DNA from: Parcubacteria group bacterium
Lineage (GTDB): Bacteria; Patescibacteriota; Minisyncoccia; JACPHC01
Direction: 5' to 3'
DNA: 64,000 nucleotides
Assembly: GCA_016188775.1 (NCBI GenBank)
Contig: JACPHC010000007.1
Location: 28,097-92,096 of the forward strand
The translations under genes were made by a program, and so were the position numbers. Position 1 is the first letter of the stretch, and every line of letters begins with the position of its first letter. The notes below the pieces were generated by a model that searched no databases, was not told the DNA's origin, and was given only the letters and a program-made list of their open reading frames with translations. This document shows, in pieces, positions 2,731 to 63,588 of this stretch.

Positions 2731-2759
2731 TGTTTCAATTTATTTCTTTTAATTTATTT

Positions 2760-2791
2760 TAGCACTTAATTGCTATCGCTTATAAATGCTA
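2760..2791. repeat. 32-bp palindromic element TAGCACTTA-N13-TAAATGCTA (copy 1 of 3)
   Basis: Near-identical copies at 31724..31755 and 36524..36555. All three sit next to stable-RNA genes. Confidence 0.6.
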
Positions 2792-2818
2792 AATAAATTA
2801 TTGGAAATTATACATATA

Positions 2819-4687: not shown

Positions 4688-5074
4688 TTATTTCGCTTCG
4701 TTATAATATTTAATAACTTTTTCAATTATCGTGTCAATTCTGGCGTTGGCTTTGATTAAAAAATCCGCTATTCCCAGAGCTTTAATTTTATCCACGTCGG
4801 CCATTTGGCTTAAATTAGAAATAACGATCACAGGGACGCTTTTCCAGCTTTCAATTTTTTTTATTTCCGAAAGTATTTCAAACCCGGACGCTCCGGGAAG
4901 CATCAAATCAAGGATAATCACGGTCGGCGGATTGCTTTTCGGGTCTTTTATGTAATTAAGCGCTTCTTTGCCGTTAATCAAAGGTTTTACCATCGCGTTT
5001 TGCTTGGCAAATTTAAGTTGGTAAGCCCTTTGGACCGATTGGTCGTCTTCAATTATGAGAATGTATTTTTCCAT
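4688..5074 (-). CDS. single-domain response regulator (receiver only)
   Basis: CheY-like fold with the DD...D...K residues. It is a close paralogue of the response regulator at 8058..8447. Its start overlaps the stop of the upstream response regulator by 1 nt. Confidence 0.8.
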   Translation of the reverse strand: MEKYILIIEDDQSVQRAYQLKFAKQNAMVKPLINGKEALNYIKDPKSNPPTVIILDLMLPGASGFEILSEIKKIESWKSVPVIVISNLSQMADVDKIKALGIADFLIKANARIDTIIEKVIKYYNEAK

Positions 5075-8057: not shown

Positions 8058-8447
8058 TCAATCCTTCGCTTCGTTATAGTATTTAATAACAAGCTCGATC
8101 ATTTCGTCAATTCTAGTGTCGGCTTTGATTAAAAATTTTTTAATGCCCAGCGCTTTGACTTTTTCAATATCAGCGGCCTGGCTTAGATTGGAGAGCACCA
8201 GAACTGTCGCGTCTTTCCAGCCGTCTCGTTTTTTAATTTCCGAAAGAATTTGGAAACCCGAAGCGCGAGGCAACATCAAGTCAAGTATAATCACGGCCGG
8301 CGGTTCGTTTTTTAGGTTTTTGACGAAATCAATCGCTTCTTGTCCGTCCAAAACGGCTTTAAACGGCAAATTGTTTTTAGCGAATTTTAATTGATAGGCT
8401 TTTTGAATGACCGGATCGTCTTCAATTATGAAAATGTATTTATTCAT
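8058..8447 (-). CDS. single-domain response regulator (receiver only)
   Basis: Starts at MNKYIFIIEDD. The longer listed ORF at 8058..8672 runs into tRNA-Ser and is not real. The protein is highly similar to the one at 4688..5074. Confidence 0.8.
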   Translation of the reverse strand: MNKYIFIIEDDPVIQKAYQLKFAKNNLPFKAVLDGQEAIDFVKNLKNEPPAVIILDLMLPRASGFQILSEIKKRDGWKDATVLVLSNLSQAADIEKVKALGIKKFLIKADTRIDEMIELVIKYYNEAKD

Positions 8448-8537
8448 TGGCGGAGGGTGCAGGATTTGAACCTGCGAGGAGCTTTCGCCCCAACTGGTTT
8501 TCAAGACCAGCGCCATAAACCGCTCGGCCAACCCTCC
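8448..8537 (-). tRNA. tRNA-Ser (anticodon TGA), class II with a long variable arm; CCA encoded
   Basis: Cloverleaf GGAGGGT...CTGGT-CTTGAAA-ACCAG...GCAGG-TTCAAAT-CCTGC-ACCCTCC-G-CCA. Confidence 0.8.
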
Positions 8538-8632
8538 GTTTAAACCACTTCCGCCCAAGACGAACCAGCCTTGGGCTGACAGGCGCGTCTCCGTAATTTT
8601 AAAATTATCATTTATCATCGTTTTAATCAAAT

Positions 8633-8688
8633 AAAGCATCCGCGCCACCCTACGGGTGGCGCGGTATTGCAATAATGCTTTGTTATGA
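8633..8688 (+). repeat. GC-rich hairpin repeat (core copy A): AAAGCATCCGCGCC-loop-GGCGCGG..ATAATGCTTTGTTATGA
   Basis: Related copies at 19515, 42873 (minus) and 58080 (minus). GC-rich stem in an AT-rich genome. Confidence 0.6.
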
Positions 8689-8731: not shown

Positions 8732-9382
8732 TTATTTTTTTTCCAATTTTCCGTTGTTTAAATAATAAAGCGTGTCGCCGAGGTTTTTGGCGTCAGTCGG
8801 GTCGTGAGTGATAATAATGGCTGGCAGACGCAATTTTTTGATGAGCGCTCTAAGCTCTCGGCCCACCGATTCTTTTGTTTCAATATCAATCGCGGAAAGC
8901 GGCTCGTCAAGAAGAAATAATTTGGGCTGTATGGCCAGCGCTCTGGCCAGAGCCACGCGCTGTTTCTCTCCGCCGGAAATTTTTTCAACGTTTCGTTGGC
9001 CAAGTTCGTCGGGCAGTTCCGCGATTTTCAAAAGTTCTCTCACTTTTTTTTTTCGCGCCTCGGCGTCTTGTCCGCGGACGGCTAAACCAAAGCCGATGTT
9101 GTCTTGGACGGAAAGATGCGGAAAGAGTCCGTAATCTTGCGGGACATAGGCGATCTGTTTTTTTTCTATGGGCAAGGAAATTATATTTTGACCGTCAAAG
9201 GAAATTTCTCCCGCTTCAGGAACAATAAACCCCAAAATGCATAAAAGAAGCGTAGTTTTTCCAGAACCGGATTTGCCCATAACCGCGACAATTTCATTTT
9301 CATTGACCGCAAGATTAAGCCCGTCAAGAATTTTTTTATCATTATAGGATTTTGTCAGATTTTTTATTGTCAGCATTGGCAT
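8732..9382 (-). CDS. ABC transporter ATP-binding protein (CysA/ModC/TupC-like importer ATPase, no C-terminal regulatory domain)
   Basis: Walker A GKSGSGKTT, signature LSGGEKQRVALARA, Walker B LLLDEP. Confidence 0.85.
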   Translation of the reverse strand: MPMLTIKNLTKSYNDKKILDGLNLAVNENEIVAVMGKSGSGKTTLLLCILGFIVPEAGEISFDGQNIISLPIEKKQIAYVPQDYGLFPHLSVQDNIGFGLAVRGQDAEARKKKVRELLKIAELPDELGQRNVEKISGGEKQRVALARALAIQPKLFLLDEPLSAIDIETKESVGRELRALIKKLRLPAIIITHDPTDAKNLGDTLYYLNNGKLEKK

Positions 9383-9391
9383 AAAAATAAT

Positions 9392-10171
9392 TTATTCCAC
9401 TTTACGTTTAAAAAGGGAACGGACAATAATAATAGTGAAAAGAGCGAATATCGTTAACAGAGCTGTCGCGGCAAGGGCGAGGAACGGATTCGCGTCTACA
9501 ACTCGGCTGGCGTATGTCGGCAGAATTTCTGTTTTGTAGGAGATCACTCCGGCAAAAATAAGCGAGCCGCCGAATTCTCCCATGGCTCTAGCCCACGAAA
9601 GAGTAAGGCCGGCTGTAATATCGCGGCGAGCTAGGGGGATAAGAACGCGAAAAAGGACATCGCGCGCGCCCGCGCCCAAAGAGCGCGCGACTAAATCCAA
9701 TTTGGAATTTTTTATTTCCCGAAATTTTCTCAAGGTGTATCCGATCGTGAACGGAGCGGAAACCAAGAGTTTGGCAATGACTACCGCGGTGAAAGTGAAC
9801 GCGATATTGATTGGCGAAGACGGCCCCAGCATAAAAAGGTAAATGACGCCGACTGCCACCGGCGGAAAAGTTTGGGGGATATCGATCAAGAGCGCTTCCA
9901 CGAAATTATTATAGCGAAAAGAGCTATAGGTGAGAAAATAGGCTACCGGTATGGCAAAAAAAGCGGTCAGCAACACCACGACAACGGCGGAAGAAAAACT
10001 GATGAGGAAAGCGGACCAAAACCTTCCATCTTGAAGAACGGCCGATGCCGCGTCAAACTTTACAAAAAAAACGACAAAAAGAAATAAATACGGGATAATA
10101 AACCAGGCAATCCAGCTCCATGACGATATTTTAATAAAGAAATTGGTTTTGTCTTTTTCAGTTCTGTTCAT
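9392..10171 (-). CDS. ABC transporter permease (CysTW/ModB family)
   Basis: EAA loop LSWARAMGEFGGSLIFAG; six transmembrane helices. Confidence 0.8.
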   Translation of the reverse strand: MNRTEKDKTNFFIKISSWSWIAWFIIPYLFLFVVFFVKFDAASAVLQDGRFWSAFLISFSSAVVVVLLTAFFAIPVAYFLTYSSFRYNNFVEALLIDIPQTFPPVAVGVIYLFMLGPSSPINIAFTFTAVVIAKLLVSAPFTIGYTLRKFREIKNSKLDLVARSLGAGARDVLFRVLIPLARRDITAGLTLSWARAMGEFGGSLIFAGVISYKTEILPTYASRVVDANPFLALAATALLTIFALFTIIIVRSLFKRKVE

Positions 10172-17770: not shown

Positions 17771-19516
17771 TTGGCAAAAGAAAAAACATTTTTTGATATT
17801 TTAGAGTCCAAAGGTCTTTTAAAAAGAACCGAGATTGATTTTATCGCCAAAGAAGCGAAAGATAAAAATATTGACCCGGAAGAACTGCTGATTGATAAAT
17901 ATCGTTTTTCAGCCATTGAAATCGCTAAAGCCAAAAGCGAGCTTACCGGCGCTCCCTTTAAAGTCATTCGAGCCGAAATTCCATTTGATGTTTTGCAATT
18001 GATTTCGGAAGAAGCGGCTCGGCGTTATCGTTTTATCCCTTTGGCGAAAACGGATAATATTCTTGAAGTCGGCATGATTAATCCCGAAGACGTCAAAGCC
18101 CAAGAAGCGCTCAAATTTATAATTTTAAGAAGCGGTTTGACCCCCAAAATTTATATTGTCAGCCGTTCCGATTTTGAAGATGTTTTGAAACAATATCGCG
18201 GTTTAAAAGGCGAGGTCAAAAAAGCCCTGAAAGAATACACCAAAGAAGCGGCCGAGGAAGAAATAATTTTGCCAAAATCTCCCTTGATTGAGAATTTAGA
18301 AAGAATGGCGGTTGAGGCGCCGATAACGAAAATAGTCTCGGTTATTTTAAGGCACGCGGTTGAAGGCAACGCTTCCGATGTTCACGTTGAGCCGACCGAT
18401 AAACAGCTTCGGGTGCGTTTTCGGGTGGACGGCATTCTTTATACCAGTCTTTTGCTGCCGGTGGAAATTCATTCGGCCGTTGTTTCCCGCATCAAAATTC
18501 TTTCTAATCTTCAGATAGACGAGACGCGCAAACCTCAAGACGGCCGTTTTCACACCGTTGTTGAAGATAAAGAGGTTGATTTTCGGGTTTCCACTTTTCC
18601 CACCAGTTTCGGCGAAAAAGTGGCGATGAGAATTTTGGATCCAACCGTCGGTCTTAAGAGTTTCAGCGACCTCGGCCTTCTCGGACGCAATGCCGAGGTT
18701 TTGTTTGAAGGATTGAAGCGGCCGTTCGGCTTGATTCTTTTGACCGGGCCGACCGGTTCGGGAAAATCCACCACCCTTTACGCGATTTTACAGTTTTTAA
18801 ACAAAGAGACGGTTAACATTGTCAGTCTTGAAGATCCGATTGAGTATTTTTTGGCCGGAGTCAATCAATCTCAAATTAAACCCGAGATCGGCTACGATTT
18901 CGCCACCGGGTTAAGGCATATTTTAAGAGGCGATCCGGATGTTATAATGGTGGGGGAAATCCGCGATCGGGAAACGGCCGCTTTGGCGGTTCACGCCGCC
19001 TTGACCGGCCATCTCGTTCTTTCCACTCTTCACACCAATGACGCTTTCGGCGTCATTCCCCGGCTGATTGATTTGGGCGTTGAGCCTTTTTTAATACCCT
19101 CGACATTAACCATTGCCATGGCTCAAAGATTGATTCGACGGCTTTGTCCGGAGTCAAGGCAGGAGACTGAGGTTGACCCGGAAAAATCCTTGATGATTGA
19201 AAAAACTTTAGCCGATTTACCCAAAGAAATTAAAGAGAGCGTTAAAATTAAAAAAGGCGCCAAAGTTTATCGGCCATTGGTTTCGCCAACGTGCCCGAAA
19301 GGCACGAGAGGCCGAATTGGCATTTACGAGGTTTTGCGAATGACGCCGGGGTTGGAAAAAATTATTTTGGAAGAACCGTCGGAAGCTCGGCTGAAAGAAG
19401 AAGCTAAAAAACAAGGGATGGTTTCAATGTACGCCGACGGCCTTTTAAAAGCGCTGGAGGGCGTTATCAGTTTTGAAGAACTGCAACAGACTGCCCAAAC
19501 GCCGGATGCCGAATAA
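17771..19516 (+). CDS. pilB: type IV pilus assembly ATPase PilB (GspE family)
   Basis: N-terminal T2SS-E domain; Walker A GPTGSGKST; tetracysteine motif. Confidence 0.9.
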   Translation: MAKEKTFFDILESKGLLKRTEIDFIAKEAKDKNIDPEELLIDKYRFSAIEIAKAKSELTGAPFKVIRAEIPFDVLQLISEEAARRYRFIPLAKTDNILEVGMINPEDVKAQEALKFIILRSGLTPKIYIVSRSDFEDVLKQYRGLKGEVKKALKEYTKEAAEEEIILPKSPLIENLERMAVEAPITKIVSVILRHAVEGNASDVHVEPTDKQLRVRFRVDGILYTSLLLPVEIHSAVVSRIKILSNLQIDETRKPQDGRFHTVVEDKEVDFRVSTFPTSFGEKVAMRILDPTVGLKSFSDLGLLGRNAEVLFEGLKRPFGLILLTGPTGSGKSTTLYAILQFLNKETVNIVSLEDPIEYFLAGVNQSQIKPEIGYDFATGLRHILRGDPDVIMVGEIRDRETAALAVHAALTGHLVLSTLHTNDAFGVIPRLIDLGVEPFLIPSTLTIAMAQRLIRRLCPESRQETEVDPEKSLMIEKTLADLPKEIKESVKIKKGAKVYRPLVSPTCPKGTRGRIGIYEVLRMTPGLEKIILEEPSEARLKEEAKKQGMVSMYADGLLKALEGVISFEELQQTAQTPDAE

Positions 19517-19695
19517 AGCATCCGCGCCGCAAGCGGCGCGGAATTGTGATAATGCTTTGTTATGAAAAGTTCTCGCTCGGCCCTGCCTGCCGGCAAGGCA
19601 GGCCGACCAACTCGCCTCGCTCGATTTAAACTCGTTTCGCTCGTTGCCTTCATCCCCGCGACAAGTCGCGTGGTATTCGGCGAATACATAATAAA
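19515..19695 (+). repeat. full-length (~180-nt) copy B of the GC-hairpin repeat family
   Basis: Its core matches 8633..8688. Its extension matches the reverse complement of 57917..58080 except for a 24-nt indel. The listed ORF MKSSRSA... is its translation. Confidence 0.6.
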
Positions 19696-20732: not shown

Positions 20733-21800
20733 ATGAGTTATTTTGAAGAACTGGAAAAACTTTTAGAAGCGGTGGTTATTCAAAACGGTTCCGATATTCA
20801 TATTAGCGTCGGCCGTCATCCCACGCTTCGGGTGGACGGGGCTTTGATCCCTTTGATTAAAAAACCGATTTTAAACGGCGAAGACGCGTTGGGTTTAATT
20901 CAGGCTCTTCTTAACGAGGAGCAGTTTAATCGTTTTTTAAAAGAAAAAGAACTGGATTTTTCTTACAGTTTTCGCGACCGGGCGCGTTTTCGGGCTAATG
21001 TGTTTTTCCAGCGCGGCTTTGCCGGCGCGGCTTTGCGTTTGATACCGGCTAAAATTAAAACCATTGAAGAGCTTAATCTTCCGCCGGTTTTGCGCGAATT
21101 CGCCCGTTACAGTCAGGGATTTTTTTTGGTGGTCGGGCCGACCGGGCACGGCAAAACCACGACCTTGGCTGCCCTAGTCGACGAGATTAATCATCAAAGA
21201 GACGAACACATCATTACCATTGAAGATCCGATTGAATATCTTTTTTCCCAATCCCGTTCGATTATTAACCAGAGGGAAGTGGGCATTGACACTGCCAATT
21301 TTCATAAAGCTCTTCGTTCGATGTTTCGGGAAGATATTGACGTGGCCATGATAGGAGAGATGCGCGATCCGGAAACGATGTCCGCCGCGGTCACGGCGGC
21401 CGAGACCGGCCATTTGGTTTTTTCCACTTTACACACCAACAGCGCCACCCAGACTATTGATCGGATTATTGATTCTTTTCCGTCCTCCCAGCAATCGCAA
21501 ATTCGCATTCAGCTGGCTTCGTCTTTAATCGGCATTGTTTCCCAGCGTTTGATTCCCCGAATTTCCGGCGGCTTGATTCCGGCCGTGGAGGTGATGATCG
21601 CCAATTCCGCCATCAGAAATTTAATTCGGGAAAATAAAACTCATCAATTAGATTTGGTGATTGACACGTCTTTTCAGGAAGGAATGGTATCTCTTAATCG
21701 ATCTTTGGCTGATTTGACGCGCCGGAAAGAAATCTCCTTAGAAAACGCGATGATTTATTCCACCAATCCGTCGGAATTAAGATTGCTTTTGAAAAAATAA
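20733..21800 (+). CDS. pilT: twitching-motility retraction ATPase PilT
   Basis: Walker A GPTGHGKTTT and PilT-family motifs; 355 aa. Confidence 0.9.
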   Translation: MSYFEELEKLLEAVVIQNGSDIHISVGRHPTLRVDGALIPLIKKPILNGEDALGLIQALLNEEQFNRFLKEKELDFSYSFRDRARFRANVFFQRGFAGAALRLIPAKIKTIEELNLPPVLREFARYSQGFFLVVGPTGHGKTTTLAALVDEINHQRDEHIITIEDPIEYLFSQSRSIINQREVGIDTANFHKALRSMFREDIDVAMIGEMRDPETMSAAVTAAETGHLVFSTLHTNSATQTIDRIIDSFPSSQQSQIRIQLASSLIGIVSQRLIPRISGGLIPAVEVMIANSAIRNLIRENKTHQLDLVIDTSFQEGMVSLNRSLADLTRRKEISLENAMIYSTNPSELRLLLKK

Positions 21801-23593: not shown

Positions 23594-23667
23594 GTCATTG
23601 CGAGCGACCGAAGAAAGCGAAGCAATCTAGCTTTCATAAACGAGATTGCCACGGCGTCTTCGACGTC
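23594..23667. repeat. inverted-repeat miniature element (GTCATTGCGAG...GAAGCAATCT / AGATTGCC...CTCGCGATGAC)
   Basis: Imperfect 74-bp palindrome. The same arms flank the GIY-YIG remnant at 52.6-52.9 kb. Confidence 0.6.
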
Positions 23668-23781
23668 TCGCGATGACAAAAAATAAGTTTTCGGATAGTT
23701 TCTGAAAATTTTAAAATTAAAATCCCCTTGATTAACATCAAAGGGATTTTAATTTTAAATCGTTTGAAAATTTAATTAACT

Positions 23782-23911
23782 GTCATTGCGAGGAGCGAAG
23801 CGACGAAGCAATCTCAATAATATTAGCTAAAATACGAGATTGCCACGCTCCTTTCAGTCTCTCGCAATGACGCATGGGATTGCTTCGGCGATTTTATCGC
23901 CTCGCAATGAC
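23782..23911. repeat. second inverted-repeat miniature element (23782..23871) plus an extra half-arm (23878..23911)
   Basis: The same GTCATTGCGAG/GAAGCAATC arms; the half-arm GATTGCTTCGGCGATTTTATCGCCTCGCAATGAC matches 52588..52622 in reverse complement. Confidence 0.6.
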
Positions 23912-31694: not shown

Positions 31695-31723
31695 TAATTT
31701 AATACTTGTATAATATATTTATT

Positions 31724-31755
31724 TAGCACTTACTTGCTATCGCTTATAAGTGCTA
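31724..31755. repeat. 32-bp palindromic element TAGCACTTAC-N12-ATAAGTGCTA (copy 2)
   Basis: Same family as 2760..2791 and 36524..36555. It lies about 115 bp upstream of the tRNA promoter. Confidence 0.6.
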
Positions 31756-31838
31756 TATCTGTTTCTATCTCGTAAAATTATCAATGATTCGATCCATTGG
31801 TAAAAAATAAAATTGGACTAACTGAACTAACAAAAAAT

Positions 31839-36377: not shown

Positions 36378-36523
36378 AAGCGTAAATTTAAAAGCAGACA
36401 GAAATGCCTGCTTTTGTTTTTTAATAAAGTCTATATTCTAAGATAACTTGGGCGCTCTCAAAAAAACCAGTAAAAATTTCAAACAACCCTCATTTATATT
36501 ATTTATTTTTTTAGTATTTTATT

Positions 36524-36555
36524 TAGCACTTATAAGCGATAGCAAATAAGTGCTA
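36524..36555. repeat. 32-bp palindromic element TAGCACTTAT-N12-ATAAGTGCTA (copy 3, loop inverted relative to copies 1 and 2)
   Basis: About 145 bp upstream of tRNA-Asp. Confidence 0.6.
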
Positions 36556-36701
36556 AAATTAAAAGTAAATTTAAATAAGTTAAATAAGTTAAGTAAGTTA
36601 ATTAGTTTATCAAATCTAAATATAAAGTTTGCTTCGTATGAGATTTGCGTGTTCAAATAAAATTTGGTAGATTATTATGCCTTAATAATTTTTTAAATTT
36701 T

Positions 36702-42795: not shown

Positions 42796-42816
42796 AAAAA
42801 TATTTTAACGCAAATA

Positions 42817-42852
42817 AAAACCGCGTCTTTAAATTTAGACGCGGTCTTTTTT
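42817..42852 (+). terminator. rho-independent terminator after gyrB (ccgcgtct/agacgcgg)
   Basis: 8-bp GC stem followed by TCTTTTTTG. Confidence 0.6.
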
Positions 42853-42872
42853 GTTTTATTATGTGTTCGTCT

Positions 42873-42919
42873 AGCATTATCACAATGCCGCGTCATCCTG
42901 CGGGTGACGCGGATGCTTT
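42873..42919 (-). repeat. GC-hairpin repeat, core copy C, minus orientation
   Basis: agcattatcacaatgccgcgtcatcctgcgggtgacgcggatgcttt. It overlaps the stop codon of the minus-strand peptidase gene. Confidence 0.6.
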
Positions 42920-44483
42920 ATTTAAACATTTCTATCAATTTGACAGGGTCAGTAAGGGCCGTATTGATTCTGACTGCCAGATGTAAATGAGGAGCGTTGG
43001 AATTGCCGGTTGAGCCAACTTTACCGACGATGTCTCCTTTTTTGACAAAATCGCCGATTTTTACCGAAAATTCGGATTGATGGAGATAAAAAGAAAATAT
43101 TCCGGCGCCGTGATCAATTACCGTGATATTGCCTTCAAGAAAATAATCATAGCCGAGATGGACTATGTGTCCGGCGGCAATGGCTTTAATCGGATAACCC
43201 GCCGGAGCCCGAAAGTCAGTTCCGTGATGAAGTCGAGATTTTTTATTTTTTGGATTGACTCTTTGCTGGCCGAATGGGCTTGTAATTTGACCGATATCCG
43301 CTTGTTTTTCAACCGGCCAATCAAATCCGTCGAGCCAATAATTTTCAGGGCTTTGATTTTGATAAGCTAATATTAATTCTCTATGCTCTTTTTCAATTCT
43401 CGCGTTTTCTTCGTCTGTCCAGTTCCTTCGATTCCATTGCTGACTGACGCTTTTTTTGAATTTACCCTTTTTGACGTTGATGATTTTTTCTTCAATGGGC
43501 CCGTCATTGCCTTTCTGATAAATCGCGAGCGGATAATCGCCCGGCGCCAAATAAAGATCAATGCCAACAAGGGCGTATGTTTTACTGTCTTTTTTAAAAA
43601 AGACAAGATTATATTTTTTCTCTTGAACCGTCAGAAATCCCTCCAGATCGTTCGGATCAACCTCGCTTTTTAAAGGAATTATTACAGGATCGCCTTGGAA
43701 AGCCGAACCGGAGTGGATATTGTTTGAATTCGCGGAAACATCAATGACTATCCTCTGTTTTTCTTTTAGCCAAAGTATATTTTCATTTTCGGAACATTTC
43801 GGATTAATAAATTCGCAAAGTTTTTTCGCGTCTTCTTTAAATAAGCGAATACAGCCGTGCGAGGCCGGATAGCCGGGAAGGTCGCCGCTATGAAGCCAGT
43901 AAGCGATGCCTTGCTCGTCAATGAAAAACATTGATGCGTAGGGCATCGGAATCGCGTTTTCCTCCGCGTCTTTGTAGACAGAGGAAAAATGGTCGCGATG
44001 AAAAGCCAGTGTTTCAAATAAACCAGTCGGAGTTTCACAGTTTTTTATTTTTTTAGTTTTTTCGTCTTGGCAACTTAATCGTCCTGAACTGATGGGAGCG
44101 GAAAAAATTAGTTTTCCTTTTTCGTAAGCTCCCAGCCATTGCTCTTCCAAATTGACTAAAATGGATTTTTCCAATTTTTTTCTTTCTTCAATCCTTTCCT
44201 TAATAAAAGGCGGCATTGGCTCGTAATTTTTAGCCTCCTCTATGTTTTTGGGCGCTTTAATTCTGTCCCCGGAGATTAAATGATTTTTGTCCATCCTGTT
44301 GAAGCGCGCCACCCAAGGCCATTCATTTTTAAATAACTTATAAAATGAATCCCCGGGCCCAACTCGATAATAGCTCCAAGCAATATTATTTTGCGAAGGA
44401 TAAATTGGCAATTCTCGAGCTGAAACTGCGTTTCCATTTAGCCACAAACCGATTAAAAATCCAACGGCGATTTTAAAAAACAT
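42918..44483 (-). CDS. bifunctional cell-wall enzyme: L,D-transpeptidase (YkuD) domain plus a C-terminal M23 metallopeptidase
   Basis: YkuD catalytic SHGCIRL; M23 HxxxD / HLH motifs (HHGTDF...APHLHLAV); signal peptide. Confidence 0.8.
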   Translation of the reverse strand: MFFKIAVGFLIGLWLNGNAVSARELPIYPSQNNIAWSYYRVGPGDSFYKLFKNEWPWVARFNRMDKNHLISGDRIKAPKNIEEAKNYEPMPPFIKERIEERKKLEKSILVNLEEQWLGAYEKGKLIFSAPISSGRLSCQDEKTKKIKNCETPTGLFETLAFHRDHFSSVYKDAEENAIPMPYASMFFIDEQGIAYWLHSGDLPGYPASHGCIRLFKEDAKKLCEFINPKCSENENILWLKEKQRIVIDVSANSNNIHSGSAFQGDPVIIPLKSEVDPNDLEGFLTVQEKKYNLVFFKKDSKTYALVGIDLYLAPGDYPLAIYQKGNDGPIEEKIINVKKGKFKKSVSQQWNRRNWTDEENARIEKEHRELILAYQNQSPENYWLDGFDWPVEKQADIGQITSPFGQQRVNPKNKKSRLHHGTDFRAPAGYPIKAIAAGHIVHLGYDYFLEGNITVIDHGAGIFSFYLHQSEFSVKIGDFVKKGDIVGKVGSTGNSNAPHLHLAVRINTALTDPVKLIEMFK

Positions 44484-51300: not shown

Positions 51301-51392
51301 ACGCGTCAATATAAATATCAAACTAAATTTAGTCAAGACAAATTTAACAAACAGAAAATAAAGCGTTAGATTAATTTTCATTATTCATCGGA

Positions 51393-51461
51393 AGGTTTCA
51401 AAATCAATTATAGCATTTTCTTTCATACTACGTAGTATGAAAGAAAATGCTATAATTGATT
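51393..51461. repeat. 60-bp perfect palindromic element with an outer GGTTTCAAAATCAA arm (left terminal-inverted-repeat-like copy)
   Basis: aatcaattatagcattttctttcatactacgtagtatgaaagaaaatgctataattgatt. An inverted copy lies at 63336..63390 and a degenerate copy at 62697..62730. Confidence 0.65.
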
Positions 51462-51699
51462 TTTTTATCTTCTTAAAAGATTTTCTAATTATTTAAAGAG
51501 TTGATTTTTTTCTCATGCTTTTTTAAAAATAGCCTAGTTTGTTGACTTATTGATTTATATATTTATACTGAATTTTAATGAATCCCGCACGGAGCCGCGA
51601 TCGCTTCTTCTTGGGATACGCATAAATATTATAAATTAGAAATTATAAAAATTAATACAAGCGGATTGCGTCTTTTGATCGCGATTTGCTTCGTACGGG

Positions 51700-52320
51700 A
51701 TGAACCAGTTTTCCGAAAAAAATCTTAAATTAGCTATTGCTCTCCATCGTTTAACGACCTTTTTCCCCGAAGAAGAGATTCTGAAAAACCAGCTTCAAGA
51801 AAAAGCCAATGAAATATTTACTAATTCTTATTTGTTGGAAGAAGATGGCTTGAATCTGCCTGACGATAAGAGAATTGATGTTAAATATAATTTATTGGCC
51901 AGCCTTCGTTTAATGAACGGTTTTTTGCTTTTAGCCAAAAATTTGGATTTCCCCAAAAAAGAAAGCCTGGAAATATTGGAAAATGAATATCAGAAAATTT
52001 TCGAACAATTAAAGTATAAATTTGAAGAAAAAATTAACCATTTTGAAAGAGAAATTGATAGCGTTGAAAAAGAAAAGGAGCCGATTTTATCCCAGCTTTC
52101 TTCCCGACAATTAAGAATTATCAAAGAGATTAAGAAAAACAAAGAAATGCGAGTGGGGGATTTGGCCCATACTTTTGGAAACCGGTTTTCTCCCAAAACA
52201 TTTCAGCGGGAACTTCAAGAATTAATGGCTAGAGGATTAATTGAAAGAACCGGAGATTATAAAAACACTTATTATGTTTTATCCCGAGGGCTTGAAAAAG
52301 TTATAAACCCCGTTCATTAA
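51700..52320 (+). CDS. DNA-binding protein with a C-terminal winged helix-turn-helix (possible regulator or replication-initiator-like protein)
   Basis: C-terminal LSSRQLRIIKEIKKNKEMRVGDLAHTFG...ELMARGLIERTGDYKNTYYVL wHTH pattern, followed directly by a repeat array. Confidence 0.45.
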   Translation: MNQFSEKNLKLAIALHRLTTFFPEEEILKNQLQEKANEIFTNSYLLEEDGLNLPDDKRIDVKYNLLASLRLMNGFLLLAKNLDFPKKESLEILENEYQKIFEQLKYKFEEKINHFEREIDSVEKEKEPILSQLSSRQLRIIKEIKKNKEMRVGDLAHTFGNRFSPKTFQRELQELMARGLIERTGDYKNTYYVLSRGLEKVINPVH

Positions 52321-52554: not shown

Positions 52555-52866
52555 TTGTCGTTGCGAGAAGGTATAAACCGACCCATTTGTCATCGCGAGG
52601 CGATAAAATCGCCGAAGCAATCTTTCAATGGTTATGAACTAAAAGCATTATTATATATACAATATACATACACATTAAAATATAACATTATAAAACTCGT
52701 TTATTACGAAACTTTTGACAGTCCGGAGGTAGCTATTCAAAGAAAAAAACAAACTAAAGGCGGTTCCCGTAAAAAGAAAATATATTTAATAAAAAGCATC
52801 AACCCTGAATTTAAAGATTTGAGTGATTCTCTTTGAGATTGCTTCGCCTTCGGCTCGCAATGACAA
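52555..52866 (+). pseudogene. decayed GIY-YIG nuclease gene bracketed by the GTCATYGCGAG / GAAGCAATCT inverted repeats
   Basis: Retains the C-terminal ...KLVYYETFDSPEVAIQRKKQTKGGSRKKKIYLIKSINPEFKDL of small GIY-YIG proteins; the N-terminal GIY/YIG region is shortened and degenerate (LLYIQYT). Inverted repeats lie at 52588..52622 and 52835..52866. Confidence 0.5.
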
Positions 52867-52927
52867 ATTAAAGTAAGATAATGTTCGCTTATCGGAAAAA
52901 TAACATTACAATTAAATGATATTTTCT

Positions 52928-53000
52928 GTCGTCATTGCGAGGCGATGAAATCGCCGAAGCAATCTCTCAATGACAAAGCAAATTCGGCTCGCAATGACAA
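52928..53000. repeat. further copy of the GTCATTGCGAG...GAAGCAATC / CTCGCAATGAC miniature element
   Basis: gtcattgcgaggcgatgaaatcgccgaagcaatctctcaatgacaaagcaaattcggctcgcaatgac. Confidence 0.6.
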
Positions 53001-57645: not shown

Positions 57646-57864
57646 ATGAAAAAAACATCTTTAACTAACATAGTTTGGAAAGAAGGTAAATATTATGTTG
57701 CCCAATGTCTTAACGTTGACGTGTCAAGTTTTGGCAGAACAAAAGCCGAAGCTTTAAAAAATCTTGAAGAAGCGCTTGAACTTTATTTTGAAGATTTTTC
57801 CATTTCTAAAATTATTCGCGTAGAAAAGCCGGTTTTTGTTGAATTGTCTTTTTCAAATGCCTAA
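57646..57864 (+). CDS. hicB: HicB-family antitoxin
   Basis: GKYYVAQCLNVDVSSFGRTKAEALKNLEEALELYFE matches the HicB/UPF0150 N-domain pattern. Confidence 0.6.
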   Translation: MKKTSLTNIVWKEGKYYVAQCLNVDVSSFGRTKAEALKNLEEALELYFEDFSISKIIRVEKPVFVELSFSNA

Positions 57865-57967
57865 GTTTTATTCTTCTCGATACATCATTAAAGTCCTGGA
57901 AAAACAGGGCTTTATTTTTATTATGTATCCGCCGAATACCCCATCTCCCATAAGGAGACGGGATTGA
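57857..57967 (+). pseudogene. hicA: truncated hicA toxin gene (only about 22 native codons) interrupted by the GC-hairpin repeat element
   Basis: MPKFYSSRYIIKVLEKQGFIFI matches the HicA N-terminus (..KVLEK.GF..). The frame then runs into repeat sequence (MYPPNTPSPIRRRD*). Its start overlaps the hicB stop. Confidence 0.5.
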
Positions 57968-58080
57968 GGCGGCGAGCGAAGCGAGTCTGAATCGAGCGAG
58001 GCAAGTTGGTCGAGCCGAGCGAGAACTTTTCATAACAAAGCATTATCACAATGCCGCGCCGCAAGCGGCGCGGATGCTTT
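57917..58080 (-). repeat. full-length copy D of the GC-hairpin repeat family (reverse orientation), inserted into hicA
   Basis: Its reverse complement matches 19515..19695 except for a 24-nt indel. The listed ORF 57812..58033 (MKSSRSA...) is its translation. Confidence 0.6.
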
Positions 58081-58091
58081 ATTTCTCAAAC

Positions 58092-60257
58092 ATGATAAAA
58101 AAAAATATATTAAAGAAAATTATTCGCTTGGGCGTGTATTTAATAATTTTTACCCCTCTTTTAGTTTTTTCTGCCACTATTTATCCTGCTTTGACCGGAA
58201 AAGTTGTTATTTTCCGTATTTTAATTGAAATTTTATTTATTTTTTGGCTTTTCTTGATTTTTTTTTATAAAGAATATCGGCCCAATTTAAAATCTCCGCT
58301 TTTTTTGTCAATTTTTATATTTATATCAGTTTCTTTTATCTCCGCTTTTTTAGGAATTAATCCTTGGCAAAGTTTTTTCAGCACTGCCGACCGTTTAATG
58401 GGTATTTTCACTTGGCTGCATTTTTTTGGTCTTTTTTTGATAATTTCAATTTTCTCTAAAGAGGAGCGGGAAAAATTTTTAAAACTTACCTTATTCGTCA
58501 GTTTTCTCGTTAGCCTTTCCGCGATTTATCAAAGAATTAATCCCGATTTTCTTTCTTTTGGCAGCAGCGAACGTCTGGCCGGCACTATTGAAAACCCGGG
58601 TTTTTTTGCCAGTTATTTAATTCCGCATATTTTTTTGGCCCTGTATTTTGTTTTTCAGAATTATTCCGCATCCAATATCTCAAATTTTATATTTTACATT
58701 TTTTATTCCCAATATTTTTGGCTTCTTCTTCTGGAATCTTTGATGTTGTTTTTTACCGGCACTCGGGGCGCGATTTTAGCTTTTGGATTTACTTTGATTT
58801 TATTAGTTTTTCTTTTTAGTTTTACGAGGCTAAGCCTCGTAAAAAGCGATTTTAAAAATTCGTTTCCGAAGTTTTTTAGACGTCCGGCATCTTTAATTTT
58901 GGCAGTTTTAATATTAATTTTTGCTCTAGGTTTTCTTTTTCGCCATCAACCGTTTTTTTATCAGATTCCATTTTTGAAACGTTTCGCCGGACTTTCTTTT
59001 AACGATCCGACAATTCAGACGAGATTTTTAACTTGGAAAATAGCTTTTAAGGGATGGCAAGAACGGCCATTTTTTGGCTGGGGTCCGGAAAATTTTAATA
59101 TTCCATTTAATAAATATTATGATCCGTCTTTTTTGAAATACGGTTTTCAAGAAACATGGTTTGACCGGGCGCATAATATCATTTTTGATAATTTAATAGC
59201 CGCCGGTCTTTTAGGTCTTATTAGTTATTTGGCTATTTTTTTCAGCGCTTTTTATTTGATTTTTAAATCAAAGGAATTTATAACTCAAAAATTAGTTTTA
59301 ATCGCCGGACTTCTCGCCTATTTTATTCAAAATCTTTTTATTTTTGATACCTTTGTCGGTTTATTGCCTTTATTTTTAGTTTTTGGTTTTATCAATACTC
59401 AATCCGTTTCCCGGCCTTTATTGGAATTATCCGGCAAAACCGGAAAAATTTTAAAATTATTTATTTTTTTTGTCGTCGGAGCATTAATTTTTACAGCCTT
59501 AGTTGTAAATTTTTCCACTTTTAAAAACGCTGTTAGTTTAAGAAACGCCATTTTAGCTGAATTGAAGAATAATTTTAATCTTTCCAGAAATATAACTAAA
59601 AAAAATTTAAGTTCTTTTTATCCTTATAAAGAAGAAACTGGCTTGCAATTTATGGCATTTATAAAACAATCTTTTGATAAAGGGTTAGATAGAGGAGAAG
59701 CGATTCAAGATATAAAATTAGCGGAAGATTTTTTTTCTTTAATCTCCTCCCGCCACAAAAAAAATTCGTTTTTATATTTCCAATATGGCAATTTTTTAAA
59801 TTCAGCCGCTAATTACGATAAAGCTTATCTCGCTAAAACCGATGAAGTGTTTAATAAAGCTTTGGAATTAAGCCCTCGGCGTCAGCAAATTCATCATTCT
59901 CTTGGAGTTAATAAAATAATGGAAGGAGAATATGAAGAGGCGATTTGGATATTTAAAAAATCCGCTTCTTTTTATAACGCGGCTCCCGATCCCCATTTTT
60001 ATTTAGGTCTTGCTTATTTTGCGATGAAAGACGAGAAAAACGGATTTGTTGAAATTGAGAAAGCCTTGGAATTCGGCTACACTGCGAAAACGCCGGAAGA
60101 AGGATTATATTTAGGGGATATTTATGAAAAAAATATTAATCTTCAAAAAGCCCTTTTTTTCTACGAATCGGCTTTATCGCTGGATCCGCAAAACAAAAAA
60201 ATTCAAGCCAAAGTTGAAACGATTAAAAATCAATTAAATAATGAAACTTCCAACTGA
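58092..60257 (+). CDS. polytopic membrane protein with an O-antigen-ligase/polymerase-like (Wzy_C) domain and C-terminal TPR repeats
   Basis: At least 10 transmembrane helices; WGPENF...FDRAHNIIFD (Wzy_C AHN motif); a C-terminal TPR region of about 250 aa. The start is moved to MIKKNIL because the listed start lies inside the repeat. Confidence 0.6.
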   Translation: MIKKNILKKIIRLGVYLIIFTPLLVFSATIYPALTGKVVIFRILIEILFIFWLFLIFFYKEYRPNLKSPLFLSIFIFISVSFISAFLGINPWQSFFSTADRLMGIFTWLHFFGLFLIISIFSKEEREKFLKLTLFVSFLVSLSAIYQRINPDFLSFGSSERLAGTIENPGFFASYLIPHIFLALYFVFQNYSASNISNFIFYIFYSQYFWLLLLESLMLFFTGTRGAILAFGFTLILLVFLFSFTRLSLVKSDFKNSFPKFFRRPASLILAVLILIFALGFLFRHQPFFYQIPFLKRFAGLSFNDPTIQTRFLTWKIAFKGWQERPFFGWGPENFNIPFNKYYDPSFLKYGFQETWFDRAHNIIFDNLIAAGLLGLISYLAIFFSAFYLIFKSKEFITQKLVLIAGLLAYFIQNLFIFDTFVGLLPLFLVFGFINTQSVSRPLLELSGKTGKILKLFIFFVVGALIFTALVVNFSTFKNAVSLRNAILAELKNNFNLSRNITKKNLSSFYPYKEETGLQFMAFIKQSFDKGLDRGEAIQDIKLAEDFFSLISSRHKKNSFLYFQYGNFLNSAANYDKAYLAKTDEVFNKALELSPRRQQIHHSLGVNKIMEGEYEEAIWIFKKSASFYNAAPDPHFYLGLAYFAMKDEKNGFVEIEKALEFGYTAKTPEEGLYLGDIYEKNINLQKALFFYESALSLDPQNKKIQAKVETIKNQLNNETSN

Positions 60258-62667: not shown

Positions 62668-62696
62668 ATTCTTTAAATTATAATTTGACAAAAACT

Positions 62697-62730
62697 TTGA
62701 TACTACTTAGTATTAAAGAAAATGTTAAAA
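62697..62730. repeat. degenerate copy of the 60-bp palindromic element (tttgatactacttagtattaaagaaaatg)
   Basis: Differs from the core tttcatactacgtagtatgaaagaaaatg at 3 positions. It lies about 55 bp upstream of the yerC-like gene. Confidence 0.45.
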
Positions 62731-62782: not shown

Positions 62783-63313
62783 ATGGCTAAATTTTTAAAA
62801 AGGAATCGTTTAACCAAAGAAGAGCAAGAAAAAGCGGTGCTTACTCTTTGCCAGGCCTTGGTTGTTATTAAAGATTTTAATGAGGCGGCAAGTTTACTTG
62901 TTGATCTTTTTTCACGTCAAGAAATGGAAATGATAGCCAAACGTTTAATGATTGCTAAATTTCTTATTCAAGGGAAAAGTTACGATGATATTCGTCAAAA
63001 TCTAAAAGTGAGTCATGCTACTATCGCGAGGGTTAGCTCTTGGCTAGAACAATCCGGCGCGGGGTATCGTTTAGTGATTGAACGGTCAAAAAATTTAAAA
63101 TTATCAGAATTATCAAAAAGCAAGATTTCCAATTGGAGTCAATTGAGACGACGTTATCCTTTATATTTTTGGCCCCAGATTCTTCTTGAAGAAATAGTTC
63201 GTAAAGCGCAAAAAAGAGATCGAGATAAATTACTTAATACCTTAGATGTATTGAAAAAAGCGGGAGAAAAGAATCAACTTTTTAAACAATTAGAAAATCT
63301 TTTAAGAAGATAA
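62783..63313 (+). CDS. TrpR-related YerC/YecD-family DNA-binding protein
   Basis: AKRLMIAKFLIQGKSYDDIRQNLKVSHATIARVS matches the Trp-repressor-like HTH pattern; 176 aa. Confidence 0.5.
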   Translation: MAKFLKRNRLTKEEQEKAVLTLCQALVVIKDFNEAASLLVDLFSRQEMEMIAKRLMIAKFLIQGKSYDDIRQNLKVSHATIARVSSWLEQSGAGYRLVIERSKNLKLSELSKSKISNWSQLRRRYPLYFWPQILLEEIVRKAQKRDRDKLLNTLDVLKKAGEKNQLFKQLENLLRR

Positions 63314-63335
63314 AATTTAATTATATTAATTATTA

Positions 63336-63390
63336 CATTTTCTTTCATACTACGTAGTATGAAAGAAAATTTAATTTTGATTTTGAAACC
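63336..63390. repeat. right (inverted) copy of the 60-bp palindromic element, with the GGTTTCAAAATCAA arm on the outside
   Basis: cattttctttcatactacgtagtatgaaagaaaat plus ttaattttgattttgaaacc. It is the reverse complement of the left copy's outer arm. Confidence 0.65.
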
Positions 63391-63588
63391 CCCTGATGAA
63401 AATGAAAATTTCATCTAACGCCTTATTTTCCGTTTGTTTTTCAAAACAGATTATCTCCATTACAATTTATGATGACAATTCAGCCGGAGTTATTACCTAT
63501 TAATTTGCCTCAGGAGTCCAAAATTGGGTGGCATTATGCATTGATTTGACATTTTATTATCATTTGTTAGTTTTAAATTTATCAAAAT

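What the first reader, a model, noticed from the sequence alone, without database searches (positions are those of the whole stretch)
19515..19695. A GC-rich hairpin repeat family: four copies, two full length, at gene ends
The core AAAGCATCCGCG(N)C-loop-G(N)CGCGG-N-ATTG-YR-ATAATGCTTTGTTATGA forms a long imperfect hairpin with a GC-rich centre. It occurs at 8633..8688 (+), 19515..19565 (+), 42873..42919 (-) and 58036..58080 (-). Copies B and D extend to about 180 nt and match each other in reverse orientation except for a 24-nt indel that is itself a hairpin (cctgcctgccggcaaggcaggccg). They share the terminal motif GGTATTCGGCGRATACATAAT. The copies abut stop codons (pilB, the M23 peptidase) or a tRNA gene, like REP/BIME or MITE elements. 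One copy has visibly disrupted hicA. ORF callers translate these elements into spurious MKSSRSA... proteins.
Basis: seen in the sequence. Interest (0 to 1): 0.55.

Follow-up and report, generated by a model that had tools for sequence, protein, structure and literature searches.

The report
Small hairpin-ended mobile repeat in Parcubacteria
A short non-coding repeat with hairpin ends is scattered at gene ends in this tiny uncultivated bacterium's genome; it looks like a miniature transposable element seen only in this lineage, which makes it a new example of a familiar kind of genomic parasite, not a new kind of system.

Summary
Four copies lie at the stated coordinates, and a fifth, a 17-nt relic, lies about 1 kb left of the window. 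B (19512-19695, +, 184 nt) and D (57917-58083, -, 167 nt) are full length. C (42855-42922, -) is an internal-deletion derivative that keeps both ends. A (8630-8688, +) is a left-end fragment.

All three complete copies are bounded by AATAAA on both sides. At D, removing the element plus one AATAAA rejoins a hicA remnant that is colinear, in DNA and protein, with intact hicA of a relative. That is an insertion signature with a 4-6 bp duplication. The nearest available relative (pilB 75% identical) shows no element in the 45 nt of contig that follow its pilB stop codon.

No transposase, integrase or reverse transcriptase was found among the window ORFs scanned. No copy turned up in GTDB species genomes, JGI metagenomes, IMG/VR or 1.2 Mb of Parcubacteria loci.

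Best reading: a lineage-restricted, non-autonomous MITE-like element that targets AATAAA, which often overlaps TAA stop codons. Its GC-rich hairpin looks like an intrinsic terminator in the reverse orientation. B's "24-nt indel" is a nested copy of a separate mini-palindrome that is widespread in Patescibacteria. I class this as a new member of a known kind, of modest interest.

The parts
8630..8688 (+). Copy A: left-end fragment (AATAAA, long hairpin, TTGTTATGA). Homology stops at 8688 and there is no right terminus. It lies between the ABC-ATPase gene (8732-9382, -) and tRNA-Ser (8448-8537, -).
   Evidence: CM 89 bits
19512..19695 (+). Copy B: full-length element, 184 nt including both flanking AATAAA. 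The left AATAAA supplies the pilB TAA stop codon. The pilin gene follows downstream.
   Evidence: (I1, I9)
19512..19561 (+). Hairpin 1 of copy B. A 10-bp outer stem (AAUAAAGCAU/AUGCUUUGUU, with one G-U) and an 8-bp GC stem (CCGCGCCG/CGGCGCGG) are separated by a conserved 10-nt 3' bulge, AATTGTGATA. Read on the opposite strand it matches the intrinsic-terminator pattern (stem followed by TGCTTTATTC).
19582..19603 (+). Nested mini-palindrome CCTGCCTGCCGGCAAGGCAGGC, absent from copy D. It is a copy of a separate palindrome family found in other Patescibacteria genomes.
19604..19656 (+). Central non-palindromic segment with three TCGCTCG motifs, 85% identical to the same segment of copy D.
   Evidence: (I9)
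19657..19670 (+). Hairpin 3 of copy B (CGCGAC-AA-GTCGCG). Copy D has an unrelated hairpin at the same position (57941-57959, CCCGTCTCC-TTATG-GGAGATGGG).
19672..19695 (+). Right terminus GGTATTCGGCGAATACATAATAAA: a small hairpin (GTATTCG/CGAATAC) followed by ACAT and AATAAA. The reverse strand reads TATTAT, which resembles a -10 box.
42855..42922 (-). Copy C: 68-nt internal-deletion derivative. Hairpin 1 is joined after ATAATGCT directly to the right terminus GACGAACACATAATAAA. The left AATAAA supplies the TAA stop of the YkuD/M23 peptidase gene (42918-44483, -). An ordinary bidirectional terminator follows at 42816-42849.
57917..58083 (-). Copy D: full-length element, 167 nt including both AATAAA. 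It is inserted in a hicA remnant between the hicB-family gene (57646-57864, +) and a Wzy_C/TPR gene (ATG at 58092, +).
57857..57916 (+). 5' part of the hicA remnant (MPKFYSSRYIIKVLEKQGFI FI), ending in the target TTTATT that is duplicated at 57917-57922 and 58078-58083.
58084..58095 (+). Continuation of the hicA remnant on the far side of copy D (TCT CAA ACA TGA = S Q T stop). It is colinear with ISQRGSH of intact HicA in relative L118. The rest of hicA is missing.

Best explanation
This is a lineage-restricted family of small, non-coding, non-autonomous transposable elements, MITE-like in the broad sense. The core is about 155-172 nt (GCATCCGCG...GGCGRATACAT). Its left end folds into a long GC-rich hairpin with a conserved bulge, and its right end folds into a small hairpin with a related stem (GYATYCG). 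The termini are weakly inverted-repeat-like: AAGCATCCGC versus ATGTATYCGC, 7-8 of 10 matches.

The element integrates at AATAAA (or AATA) and duplicates 4-6 bp. AATAAA often overlaps TAA stop codons and the A/T tracts of terminators in this AT-rich genome, so copies end up exactly at gene ends without destroying genes.

Shown here:
- dispersed copies in both orientations and in unrelated contexts;
- identical sharp boundaries;
- a flanking direct repeat;
- one reconstructable empty site, in hicA;
- decay products: an internal deletion, a truncation and a relic.

Inferred, not shown:
- mobilisation in trans by a transposase encoded elsewhere in the genome, or now lost;
- a cut-and-paste mechanism with staggered cuts;
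- a secondary role of the GC hairpin as a terminator or mRNA-end structure. It matches the terminator pattern in the reverse orientation in all four copies.
For: - Copy number: five copies in about 69 kb of one genome, two on the + strand and two on the - strand within the window, with unrelated flanks.
- Boundaries: homology starts at AATAAAGC in all five copies and stops at ACATAATAAA in B, C and D. AATAAA therefore brackets all three complete copies, although it is a common hexamer (245 occurrences on the two strands).
- Empty site at D: deleting the element plus one TTTATT gives MPKFYSSRYIIKVLEKQGFIFISQT. This aligns without gaps to HicA of relative L118 (17 of 24 identical, E = 1e-11), including residues S and Q encoded beyond the element. 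The DNA is also colinear with two relatives through TTTATTTCTCAAA. The restored peptide's only Pfam hit is HicA_toxin, and it is weak (E = 0.18).
- Empty sites at B and C: in-silico excision keeps the pilB and M23 stop codons.
- Relative: the nearest relative's pilB (75% identical) is followed by unrelated AT-rich sequence with no hairpin in the 45 nt available.
- Conservation pattern: the termini (96% between B and D) are better conserved than the interior (85%).
- Coding: the element does not encode a protein. The B and D ORFs lose frame, the substitutions I checked by eye are mostly non-synonymous, and no homologous protein exists.
- Assembly: assemblers treat it as a repeat. Logan contigs from four runs end inside it.
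Against: - None of the roughly 45 window ORFs scanned matches a transposase, integrase, RAYT, TnpB or RT family. The autonomous partner is unknown.
- The terminal inverted repeat is short and imperfect.
- The flanking 'duplication' is the same hexamer in every copy. It could therefore be a fixed target or part of the element, not a true target-site duplication.
- Only one empty site could be reconstructed, and that hicA is independently truncated 9 nt beyond the element.
- No copy was found in any other genome or metagenome searched, so insertion polymorphism is untested. The copy at D appears fixed in four samples.
- Genome-wide copy number is unknown.
Confidence: 0.62

Rival explanations
1. 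The element is mobile, but it moves as single-stranded DNA recognised through its hairpins, as in a REP/RAYT system or an IS200/IS605-derived PATE. In that case AATAAA is a fixed target motif next to the left end, and the element's own right end happens to carry the same motif. It would not be a true duplication.
For: - Both ends carry subterminal hairpins with related stems (GCATCCG and GTATTCG/GTATCCG).
- The flanking hexamer is invariant in all copies, as expected for target-specific insertion.
- G-T wobbles (outer stem of hairpin 1, and hairpins 3 and 4 of D) pair on one strand only, which suggests a strand-specific fold.
- Hairpin apices vary freely while the stem bases are fixed.
Against: - No Y1 transposase or RAYT was found in the window.
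- The two hairpins differ greatly in size and only the left one has the conserved bulge.
- There is no GTAG-type motif.
- The unit (155-172 nt) is far longer than a REP.
- Copy orientation shows no consistent relation to the apparent replication direction.
Confidence: 0.15
2. The element is a functional RNA or regulatory module, not a parasite. Two versions are possible. One is a small RNA gene on the reverse strand, with the TATTAT -10-like box at the 'right terminus' and the GC hairpin plus AUGCUUUAUU as its terminator. The other is a portable terminator/promoter cassette, with the forward-strand bulge TGTGATAAT acting as an extended -10 box.
For: - The hairpin matches the intrinsic-terminator pattern on the reverse strand in 4 of 4 copies.
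- TATTAT is conserved in B, C and D and was picked as a -10 box at C and D.
- TGnGATAAT/TGnAATAAT is conserved in the bulge.
- The hairpins keep pairing through changes on both sides, and hairpin 3 is replaced by a different hairpin.
- D folds better than shuffled sequence (z = -3.4).
Against: - Homology ends at the -10-like box, so no -35 box or upstream region is shared.
- Copy B lacks a plausible -35 box on the reverse strand (my own reading of the sequence).
- Orientation relative to neighbouring genes is split 2:2.
- The interior is less conserved than the ends.
- There is no Rfam match.
- The element is not conserved in any related genome or after pilB of the nearest relative in the 45 nt available there.
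- Apparent compensatory changes in DNA palindromes can arise from template switching without any selection on RNA (established knowledge of quasi-palindrome mutagenesis).
- This reading does not explain the split hicA remnant.
Confidence: 0.15
3. The copies arose by local segmental duplication or gene conversion of an intergenic terminator region, with no transposition.
For: All known copies lie within about 69 kb of one contig. No copies were found elsewhere.
Against: - The flanks share no homology beyond the sharp boundaries.
- The copies lie in both orientations and at five unrelated loci.
- One copy lies inside a gene remnant with a short duplication.
- The sequence between copies is single-copy housekeeping DNA.
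Confidence: 0.04

Closest known systems
Bacterial MITEs such as Neisseria Correia elements, pneumococcal RUP and enterobacterial ERIC/IRU (comparison from my own knowledge of these families)
   Same: All are 100-200 nt, non-coding and dispersed in intergenic regions and at gene ends in both orientations. They are flanked by a short AT-rich duplication, have inverted-repeat-like ends that can fold into a long hairpin, and can carry promoter-like and terminator-like signals. Deletion derivatives also occur.
   Different: There is no sequence similarity to any of them. The terminal inverted repeat is only about 10 nt and imperfect. The flanking repeat is an invariant AATAAA/AATA, not TA. No cognate insertion sequence is known. 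The family was seen in only one Parcubacteria lineage.
REP/BIME elements with RAYT transposases
   Same: Both are GC-rich extragenic palindromes at 3' ends of genes in either orientation, with conserved stem bases and variable apices. Both can act as terminators or mRNA stabilisers.
   Different: The unit here is much longer and composite (155-172 nt, with a non-palindromic centre). There is no GTAG-like motif and no RAYT gene in the window. A duplication is present at the one reconstructable site.
IS200/IS605-derived palindrome-associated transposable elements (PATEs)
   Same: Both have subterminal hairpins at the two ends, and the insertion lies next to a fixed short motif.
   Different: The left and right hairpins are dissimilar in size. 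No TnpA or TnpB is nearby. The apparent duplication is not expected for this family unless the right end mimics the target.
GC clusters of yeast mitochondria and Rickettsia palindromic elements
   Same: Both are GC-rich palindromic modules colonising an AT-rich genome and nesting in one another. This applies mainly to the CCTGCCTGCCGGCAAGGCAGGC insert in copy B. Relatives of that insert sit in frame inside a DNA ligase gene in another Patescibacteria genome, much as Rickettsia palindromic elements sit inside genes.
   Different: The hosts and sequences are unrelated. Mobility of the mini-palindrome is inferred only from its scattered distribution.

Membership tests
MITE (miniature inverted-repeat transposable element) | Small (under about 500 bp) with no coding capacity | tested here: met
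   The copies are 167-184 nt. The ORFs in B and D are not colinear, and no homologous protein exists among 5.8 billion.
MITE (miniature inverted-repeat transposable element) | Multiple dispersed copies in one genome | tested here: met
   Five copies at unrelated loci within about 69 kb. The genome-wide number could not be obtained.
MITE (miniature inverted-repeat transposable element) | Target-site duplication flanking the element | tested here: inconclusive
   AATAAA flanks B, C and D on both sides. The hicA site shows that exactly one extra copy of the hexamer accompanies the element. Because the hexamer is the same in every copy, a fixed target or an element-borne repeat cannot be excluded.
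MITE (miniature inverted-repeat transposable element) | Terminal inverted repeats | tested here: inconclusive
   AAGCATCCGC matches the reverse complement of the right end, ATGTATCCGC, at 8 of 10 positions in D and 7 of 10 in B. This comes from my own reading of the sequences. The repeat is short and imperfect.
MITE (miniature inverted-repeat transposable element) | A cognate autonomous insertion sequence with the same ends | tested here: not met
   No transposase family matched any of the roughly 45 window ORFs scanned.
REP/BIME | A 20-40 nt imperfect palindrome with a conserved 5' tetranucleotide (GTAG type) | tested here: not met
   The hairpin spans about 50 nt with a 10-nt bulge and is part of a 155-172 nt unit. 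No GTAG motif is present.
REP/BIME | An associated RAYT (Y1 transposase) gene | tested here: not met
   None among the window ORFs. This is not testable genome-wide.
IS200/IS605-type PATE | Similar subterminal hairpins at both ends, no duplication, insertion 3' of a fixed tetra- or pentanucleotide | tested here: inconclusive
   A fixed flanking motif is present and the two stems are related (GYATYCG). However, the hairpins are very unequal in size and the hexamer is present on both sides.
Intrinsic (Rho-independent) terminator | A GC-rich stem-loop followed at once by a U-rich tract | tested here: met
   The pattern is met on the reverse strand of the element in all four copies (stem of 8-11 bp followed by ATGCTTTATT). 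On the forward strand it is not met. This is a pattern match only. Function was not tested.
Rfam RNA families | A match to a curated covariance model at or above the gathering score | tested here: not met
   Only tRNAs reach the gathering score in the window. The best sub-threshold hit over the element is 26.6 bits against a threshold of 70.
Diversity-generating retroelement TR/VR pair | Differences between repeats confined to adenine positions, with a reverse transcriptase nearby | tested here: not met
   B and D differ by 9 transitions and 6 transversions of all types. No reverse transcriptase is in the window.

The most novel reading that the evidence does not exclude
GC-rich palindromes may behave as independent, exchangeable selfish modules in Patescibacteria genomes. 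The copies of this element differ almost only by palindromic modules. The apex of hairpin 1 is swapped or flipped (CAAG versus CTTG, ACCCTACGGGT, ACCCGCAGGAT). A 22-nt palindrome is present in B only. Hairpin 3 is replaced wholesale. The B-only palindrome also recurs, nearly identical, in at least five other Parcubacteria genomes, including in-frame tandem copies inside a DNA ligase gene. That would point to a palindrome-propagating process, either hairpin-templated insertion or an unknown hairpin-specific enzyme, that acts across the phylum. The 170-nt element would be one of its substrates. A still more speculative variant is that the forward-strand TGTGATAAT promoter-like box drives an RNA through the right end into flanking DNA, as an orphan guide-RNA-bearing transposon end would.
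Probability: 0.15. Interest if true: 0.65.

Novelty: new member of a known kind. Interest (0 to 1): 0.35.

Why it matters
Patescibacteria (the candidate phyla radiation, CPR) have very small, streamlined genomes. I found no description of miniature transposable elements in them in the searchable literature. A documented MITE-like family would have four practical consequences:
- It shows that non-autonomous mobile DNA persists in these reduced genomes.
- It explains recurrent assembly breaks in such MAGs.
- It warns annotators about hairpin-derived ORFs and about stop codons supplied by an insertion.
- It provides a marker for strain-level variation.

The nested mini-palindrome shared across distant Parcubacteria may be the more general phenomenon worth following up. 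None of this changes how such elements are understood in bacteria generally.

Tried and rejected
- **Known RNA family:** Rfam at gathering score and at E <= 10 gave nothing relevant.
- **Protein-coding:** the MKSSRSA ORFs of B and D diverge by frame and have no homologue.
- **Exact-pattern scans:** GTDB species genomes gave 0 hits. JGI metagenomes gave 26 hits, all chance matches inside GC-rich coding sequence with no hairpin. IMG/VR gave 0 hits for three patterns.
- **Covariance model of the hairpin:** searched against 1.25 Mb of sequence (the window plus about 1.2 Mb of Parcubacteria loci), it found only the window's own four copies. BLASTN-short against the same loci found only the nested palindrome.
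- **Inverted repeats of a 38-kb mobile island (B and D):** rejected, because the interior is the type IV pilus operon, ligA, gatCA, a Mur ligase, pheST and gyrB.
- **DGR template/variable repeats:** rejected, because the substitutions are not adenine-specific and there is no reverse transcriptase.
- **Integron attC:** there are no R''/R' (RYYYAAC/GTTRRRY) motifs (my reading of the sequence).
- **Xer/dif-like site:** GATAA-N7-TTATG has some resemblance to a dif core. However, the spacer is 7 nt, the outer arms fit poorly, and the site is multi-copy. I judged this to be chance.
- **DNA-uptake sequence:** the conserved 12-mer occurs only inside the elements.
- **Replichore-linked orientation bias:** copy orientations do not track GC skew or gene-strand switches.
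- **More sequence from the same genome:** one protein look-up failed. The others gave only 5.2 kb of new sequence, because the short-read contigs break at every repeat.
Full report
**Observation**

All four share AATAAAGCATCCGCG, a GC-rich stem with a variable apex, and CGCGG-N-ATTG-YR-ATAATGCT. The copies lie at 8630 (+), 19512 (+), 42922 (-) and 58083 (-).

- The 12-mer AAAGCATCCGCG occurs exactly four times. With one mismatch allowed there are five matches in all, against a mean of 0.54 in dinucleotide-preserving shuffles, and none of 100 shuffles reaches five.
- The 23-mer following the stem occurs three times, with none expected.
- The terminal motif GGTATTCGGCGRATACATAAT occurs twice, with 0.01 expected.
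- The repeat finder independently paired 19512-19581 with 58014-58083 (70 nt, 96% identical), 19604-19656 with 57960-58012 (85%), and 8629-8679 with 42873-42923 (82%).

**Anatomy**

A global alignment gives copy B as 19512-19695 (184 nt) and copy D as 57917-58083 (167 nt, minus strand). Of the aligned columns, 140 are identical, 15 are mismatches (9 transitions, 6 transversions) and 41 are gaps. The gaps fall in two places.

- The second is a hairpin near the right end that has been replaced outright. B has CGCGAC-AA-GTCGCG, while D has CCCGTCTCC-TTATG-GGAGATGGG.

Copy C (42855-42922, minus strand, 68 nt) keeps hairpin 1 up to ATAATGCT and then joins directly to GACGAACACATAATAAA, the right terminus. 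It is therefore an internal-deletion derivative with both ends, not merely a core. Copy A (8630-8688) keeps AATAAA, the hairpin and TTGTTATGA, and then loses homology.

Hairpin 1 has a 10-bp outer stem, an 8-11-bp GC stem, and a conserved 10-nt bulge on the 3' side (N-ATTG-YR-ATA). Across the four copies 98.7% of cells are paired, and two pairs changed on both sides (C-G to U-A, and A-U to G-C). The loops of B and D are reverse complements of each other (CAAG versus CTTG).

**Host and distribution**

- The window's PilB is 100% identical to a protein from an NCBI "Parcubacteria group bacterium" MAG with a contig of 94,994 bp. It is also found in Logan assemblies of SRR12113420, -21, -22 and -24.
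- The best PilB in GTDB species representatives is only 56-60% identical (Sungiibacteriota and Portnoybacteria). The best anywhere is 75% identical.
- Logan contigs stop inside the element. L107 ends 56 nt after the pilB stop at ...GTTATGAAAAGTTC. L110 and L111 begin at window position 58023. Four contigs from four runs all end 169 nt after the hicB stop, inside copy D. Short-read assemblers behave this way at repeats. It also shows that copy D is present in all four samples.
- A contig that extends 5.2 kb beyond the left edge of the window (L109) holds a fifth copy at 9441-9457. It is a 17-nt relic, AAATAAAGCATCCGCGC, lying next to the terminator of a Pup-ligase gene.
- No real copy was found elsewhere. 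GTDB species genomes gave 0 hits. JGI metagenomes gave 26 hits, all chance matches in GC-rich coding sequence. IMG/VR gave 0 hits. A covariance model of the hairpin, searched over 1.25 Mb (the window plus about 1.2 Mb of Parcubacteria loci), found only the four window copies.

**Insertion signatures**

Homology begins at AATAAAGC in all five copies and ends at ACATAATAAA in B, C and D. The three complete copies are therefore bracketed by AATAAA.

At B and C, the TAA inside the left AATAAA is the stop codon of pilB and of the YkuD/M23 peptidase gene. Removing the element plus one AATAAA leaves GAA TAA A... after pilB, and AAA TAA followed by an ordinary bidirectional terminator after the peptidase gene. 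Both gene ends therefore remain intact.

The decisive case is copy D.

- The ORF at 57646-57864 is named a HicB-family antitoxin by NCBI.
- A relative, L118, has an intact hicB-hicA pair. Its HicA begins MPKLYSSSHIIKVLQSKGFIYISQRGSHVKF....
- In the window the plus strand reads ...GGC TTT ATT TTT ATT | element | TTT ATT TCT CAA ACA TGA.
- Deleting the element and one TTTATT gives MPKFYSSRYIIKVLEKQGFIFISQT. This aligns to the relative's HicA without gaps over 24 residues (17 identical, E = 1e-11). The alignment includes S and Q, which are encoded on the far side of the element.
- The DNA is likewise colinear with hicA of two relatives through TTTATTTCTCAAA.
- The restored peptide's only Pfam hit is HicA_toxin, which is weak (E = 0.18). 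The uninterrupted reading through the element does not hit HicA.

The element therefore sits inside a hicA remnant together with a 4-6-bp duplication. The last two bases are ambiguous, because the element would then begin with AA.

Two caveats apply. The remaining 47 or so codons of hicA are absent for an independent reason: the next gene starts 9 nt beyond the element. The duplicated hexamer is also the same in every copy.

Finally, the 75%-identical relative has unrelated AT-rich sequence after its pilB stop (GAATAGAAAATTTCAAAT...) and no hairpin in the 45 nt available before the contig ends.

**Context**

Pfam scans of about 45 window ORFs found no transposase, integrase, Y1/RAYT, TnpB or reverse transcriptase. 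The 38 kb between the inverted copies B and D holds the type IV pilus operon, ligA, gatCA, a Mur ligase, pheST and gyrB. B and D are therefore not the ends of an island.

Orientation relative to the neighbouring genes is split. B and C read in the same direction as the upstream gene, while A and D read against it. Orientation also does not follow GC skew.

**Signals within the element**

On that same strand the right terminus reads TTTATTATG. Its TATTAT was picked as a -10 hexamer at C and D, but only together with -35 boxes that lie outside the element.

This is my own reading of the sequence.

**Interpretation**

The following features fit a non-autonomous transposable element of the MITE type best (confidence about 0.6):
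- dispersed copies in both orientations;
- sharp common boundaries;
- a flanking short direct repeat;
- one reconstructable empty site;
- ends better conserved than the interior;
- an internal-deletion derivative, a truncated copy and a relic;
- no coding capacity;
- absence after pilB of the nearest relative, in the 45 nt available there.

A preference for AATAAA explains why copies sit exactly on TAA stop codons and beside terminators. The transposase and the chemistry remain inferred.

Three rivals remain. The first is a hairpin-directed single-strand mechanism (REP/RAYT or IS200/IS605-like), which the invariant flanking motif and the related stems at the two ends keep alive (about 0.15). 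The second is a functional RNA or a terminator/promoter cassette (about 0.15). It fails to explain the split hicA, the 2:2 orientation, the weaker conservation of the interior and the lack of any conservation outside this lineage. The third is local duplication (about 0.04).

The apparent compensatory changes cannot be taken as evidence for selection on RNA structure. Template switching within DNA palindromes produces the same pattern (established knowledge of quasi-palindrome mutagenesis).

**The nested palindrome**

The insert that distinguishes B from D matches other Parcubacteria loci.
- A 26-nt stretch spanning the insert is 100% identical in a Giovannonibacteria contig, beside a tRNA gene (L043:5639-5664).
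- Variants occur in L032, L054 and L085.
- In L090 there are several copies. Four tandem 21-nt units and a further single copy lie in frame inside a 609-aa ORF that reads as an ATP-dependent DNA ligase from its C-terminal motif (my reading; Pfam was not run). They encode LPAGRYG and LPAGRQG repeats.

The core pattern gives seven hits in 1.27 Mb, spread over six genomes. This is far above chance for a 16-20-mer. The insert is therefore a separate, phylum-wide mini-palindrome that has landed inside copy B.

Taken together with the swapped apex of hairpin 1 and the replaced hairpin 3, the copies differ almost only by palindromic modules. This is the most unusual aspect of the locus, and it forms the basis of the "novel case".

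**Comparison and verdict**

The element works like bacterial MITEs (Correia, RUP, ERIC) but shares no sequence with them and lacks a known parent insertion sequence.
- For MITE membership it meets three criteria (size, non-coding, multi-copy), is inconclusive on two (duplication, terminal inverted repeats), and fails one within the window (cognate IS).
- It does not meet the REP criteria.
- I found no report of such elements in Patescibacteria in the searchable literature.

My verdict is a real, lineage-specific, MITE-like repeat: a new member of a known kind, of modest interest (0.35).

Noticed in passing
window 19582-19603; L043:5639-5664; L032:143-158; L054:11605-11620; L085:18218-18233; L090:19743-19830 and 21124-21147: A GC-rich mini-palindrome, CCTGCCTGCCGG(C/T)A(A)GGCAGG, recurs nearly identically in at least six Parcubacteria genomes. 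In L090 it forms four tandem 21-nt units plus one further copy, all in frame inside a 609-aa ORF that reads as an ATP-dependent DNA ligase (LPAGRYG and LPAGRQG repeats). This resembles Rickettsia palindromic elements or mitochondrial GC clusters.
   Followed up: partly
window 23594-23911 and 52556-52990: There are clusters of a second hairpin family, GTCATTGCGAG...GAAGCAATC. At least eight copies lie in both orientations. One cluster surrounds what reads like the C-terminal fragment of a small GIY-YIG-type nuclease gene (about 52690-52835). These hairpins are common in Patescibacteria and are often translated into spurious peptides.
   Followed up: no
window 51346-51527 versus 63251-63438 (inverted), also 62695-62730: A repeat of about 180 nt (82-91% identical) is centred on a perfect 34-nt palindrome, ATTTTCTTTCATACTACGTAGTATGAAAGAAAAT. 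It lies next to a Trp-repressor-family gene (62783-63313) and upstream of 51700-52320. It looks like a shared operator/promoter region or another repeat family. Logan contigs also break here.
   Followed up: no
window 2758-2794, 31722-31758, 36522-36558: A 37-nt motif, TTTAGCACTTAnTTGCTATCGCTTATAAGTGCTA, lies beside three tRNA genes (Arg, Met, Asp), once in inverted orientation. It may be a shared tRNA promoter or processing signal.
   Followed up: no
window 57857-57916 plus 58084-58095; L116:1117-1335: hicA is decaying in more than one lineage. In the window only about 25 codons remain. In relative L116 the hicA next to an intact hicB carries a premature stop (MPKLCS*). Orphan HicB antitoxins therefore seem common in these genomes.
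   Followed up: partly
L109:9488-13267 (just left of the window start): A Pup-ligase (PafA-like) gene and an AAA ATPase with a proteasomal OB domain sit next to recG. This suggests a pupylation/proteasome-type system in this Parcubacteria genome.
   Followed up: no
window 4692-4991 versus 8065-8364: A 300-nt direct repeat, 71% identical, corresponds to paralogous response-regulator genes. The ORF at 8058-8672 on the minus strand overruns tRNA-Ser and copy A, so its long form is probably a mis-extension.
   Followed up: no
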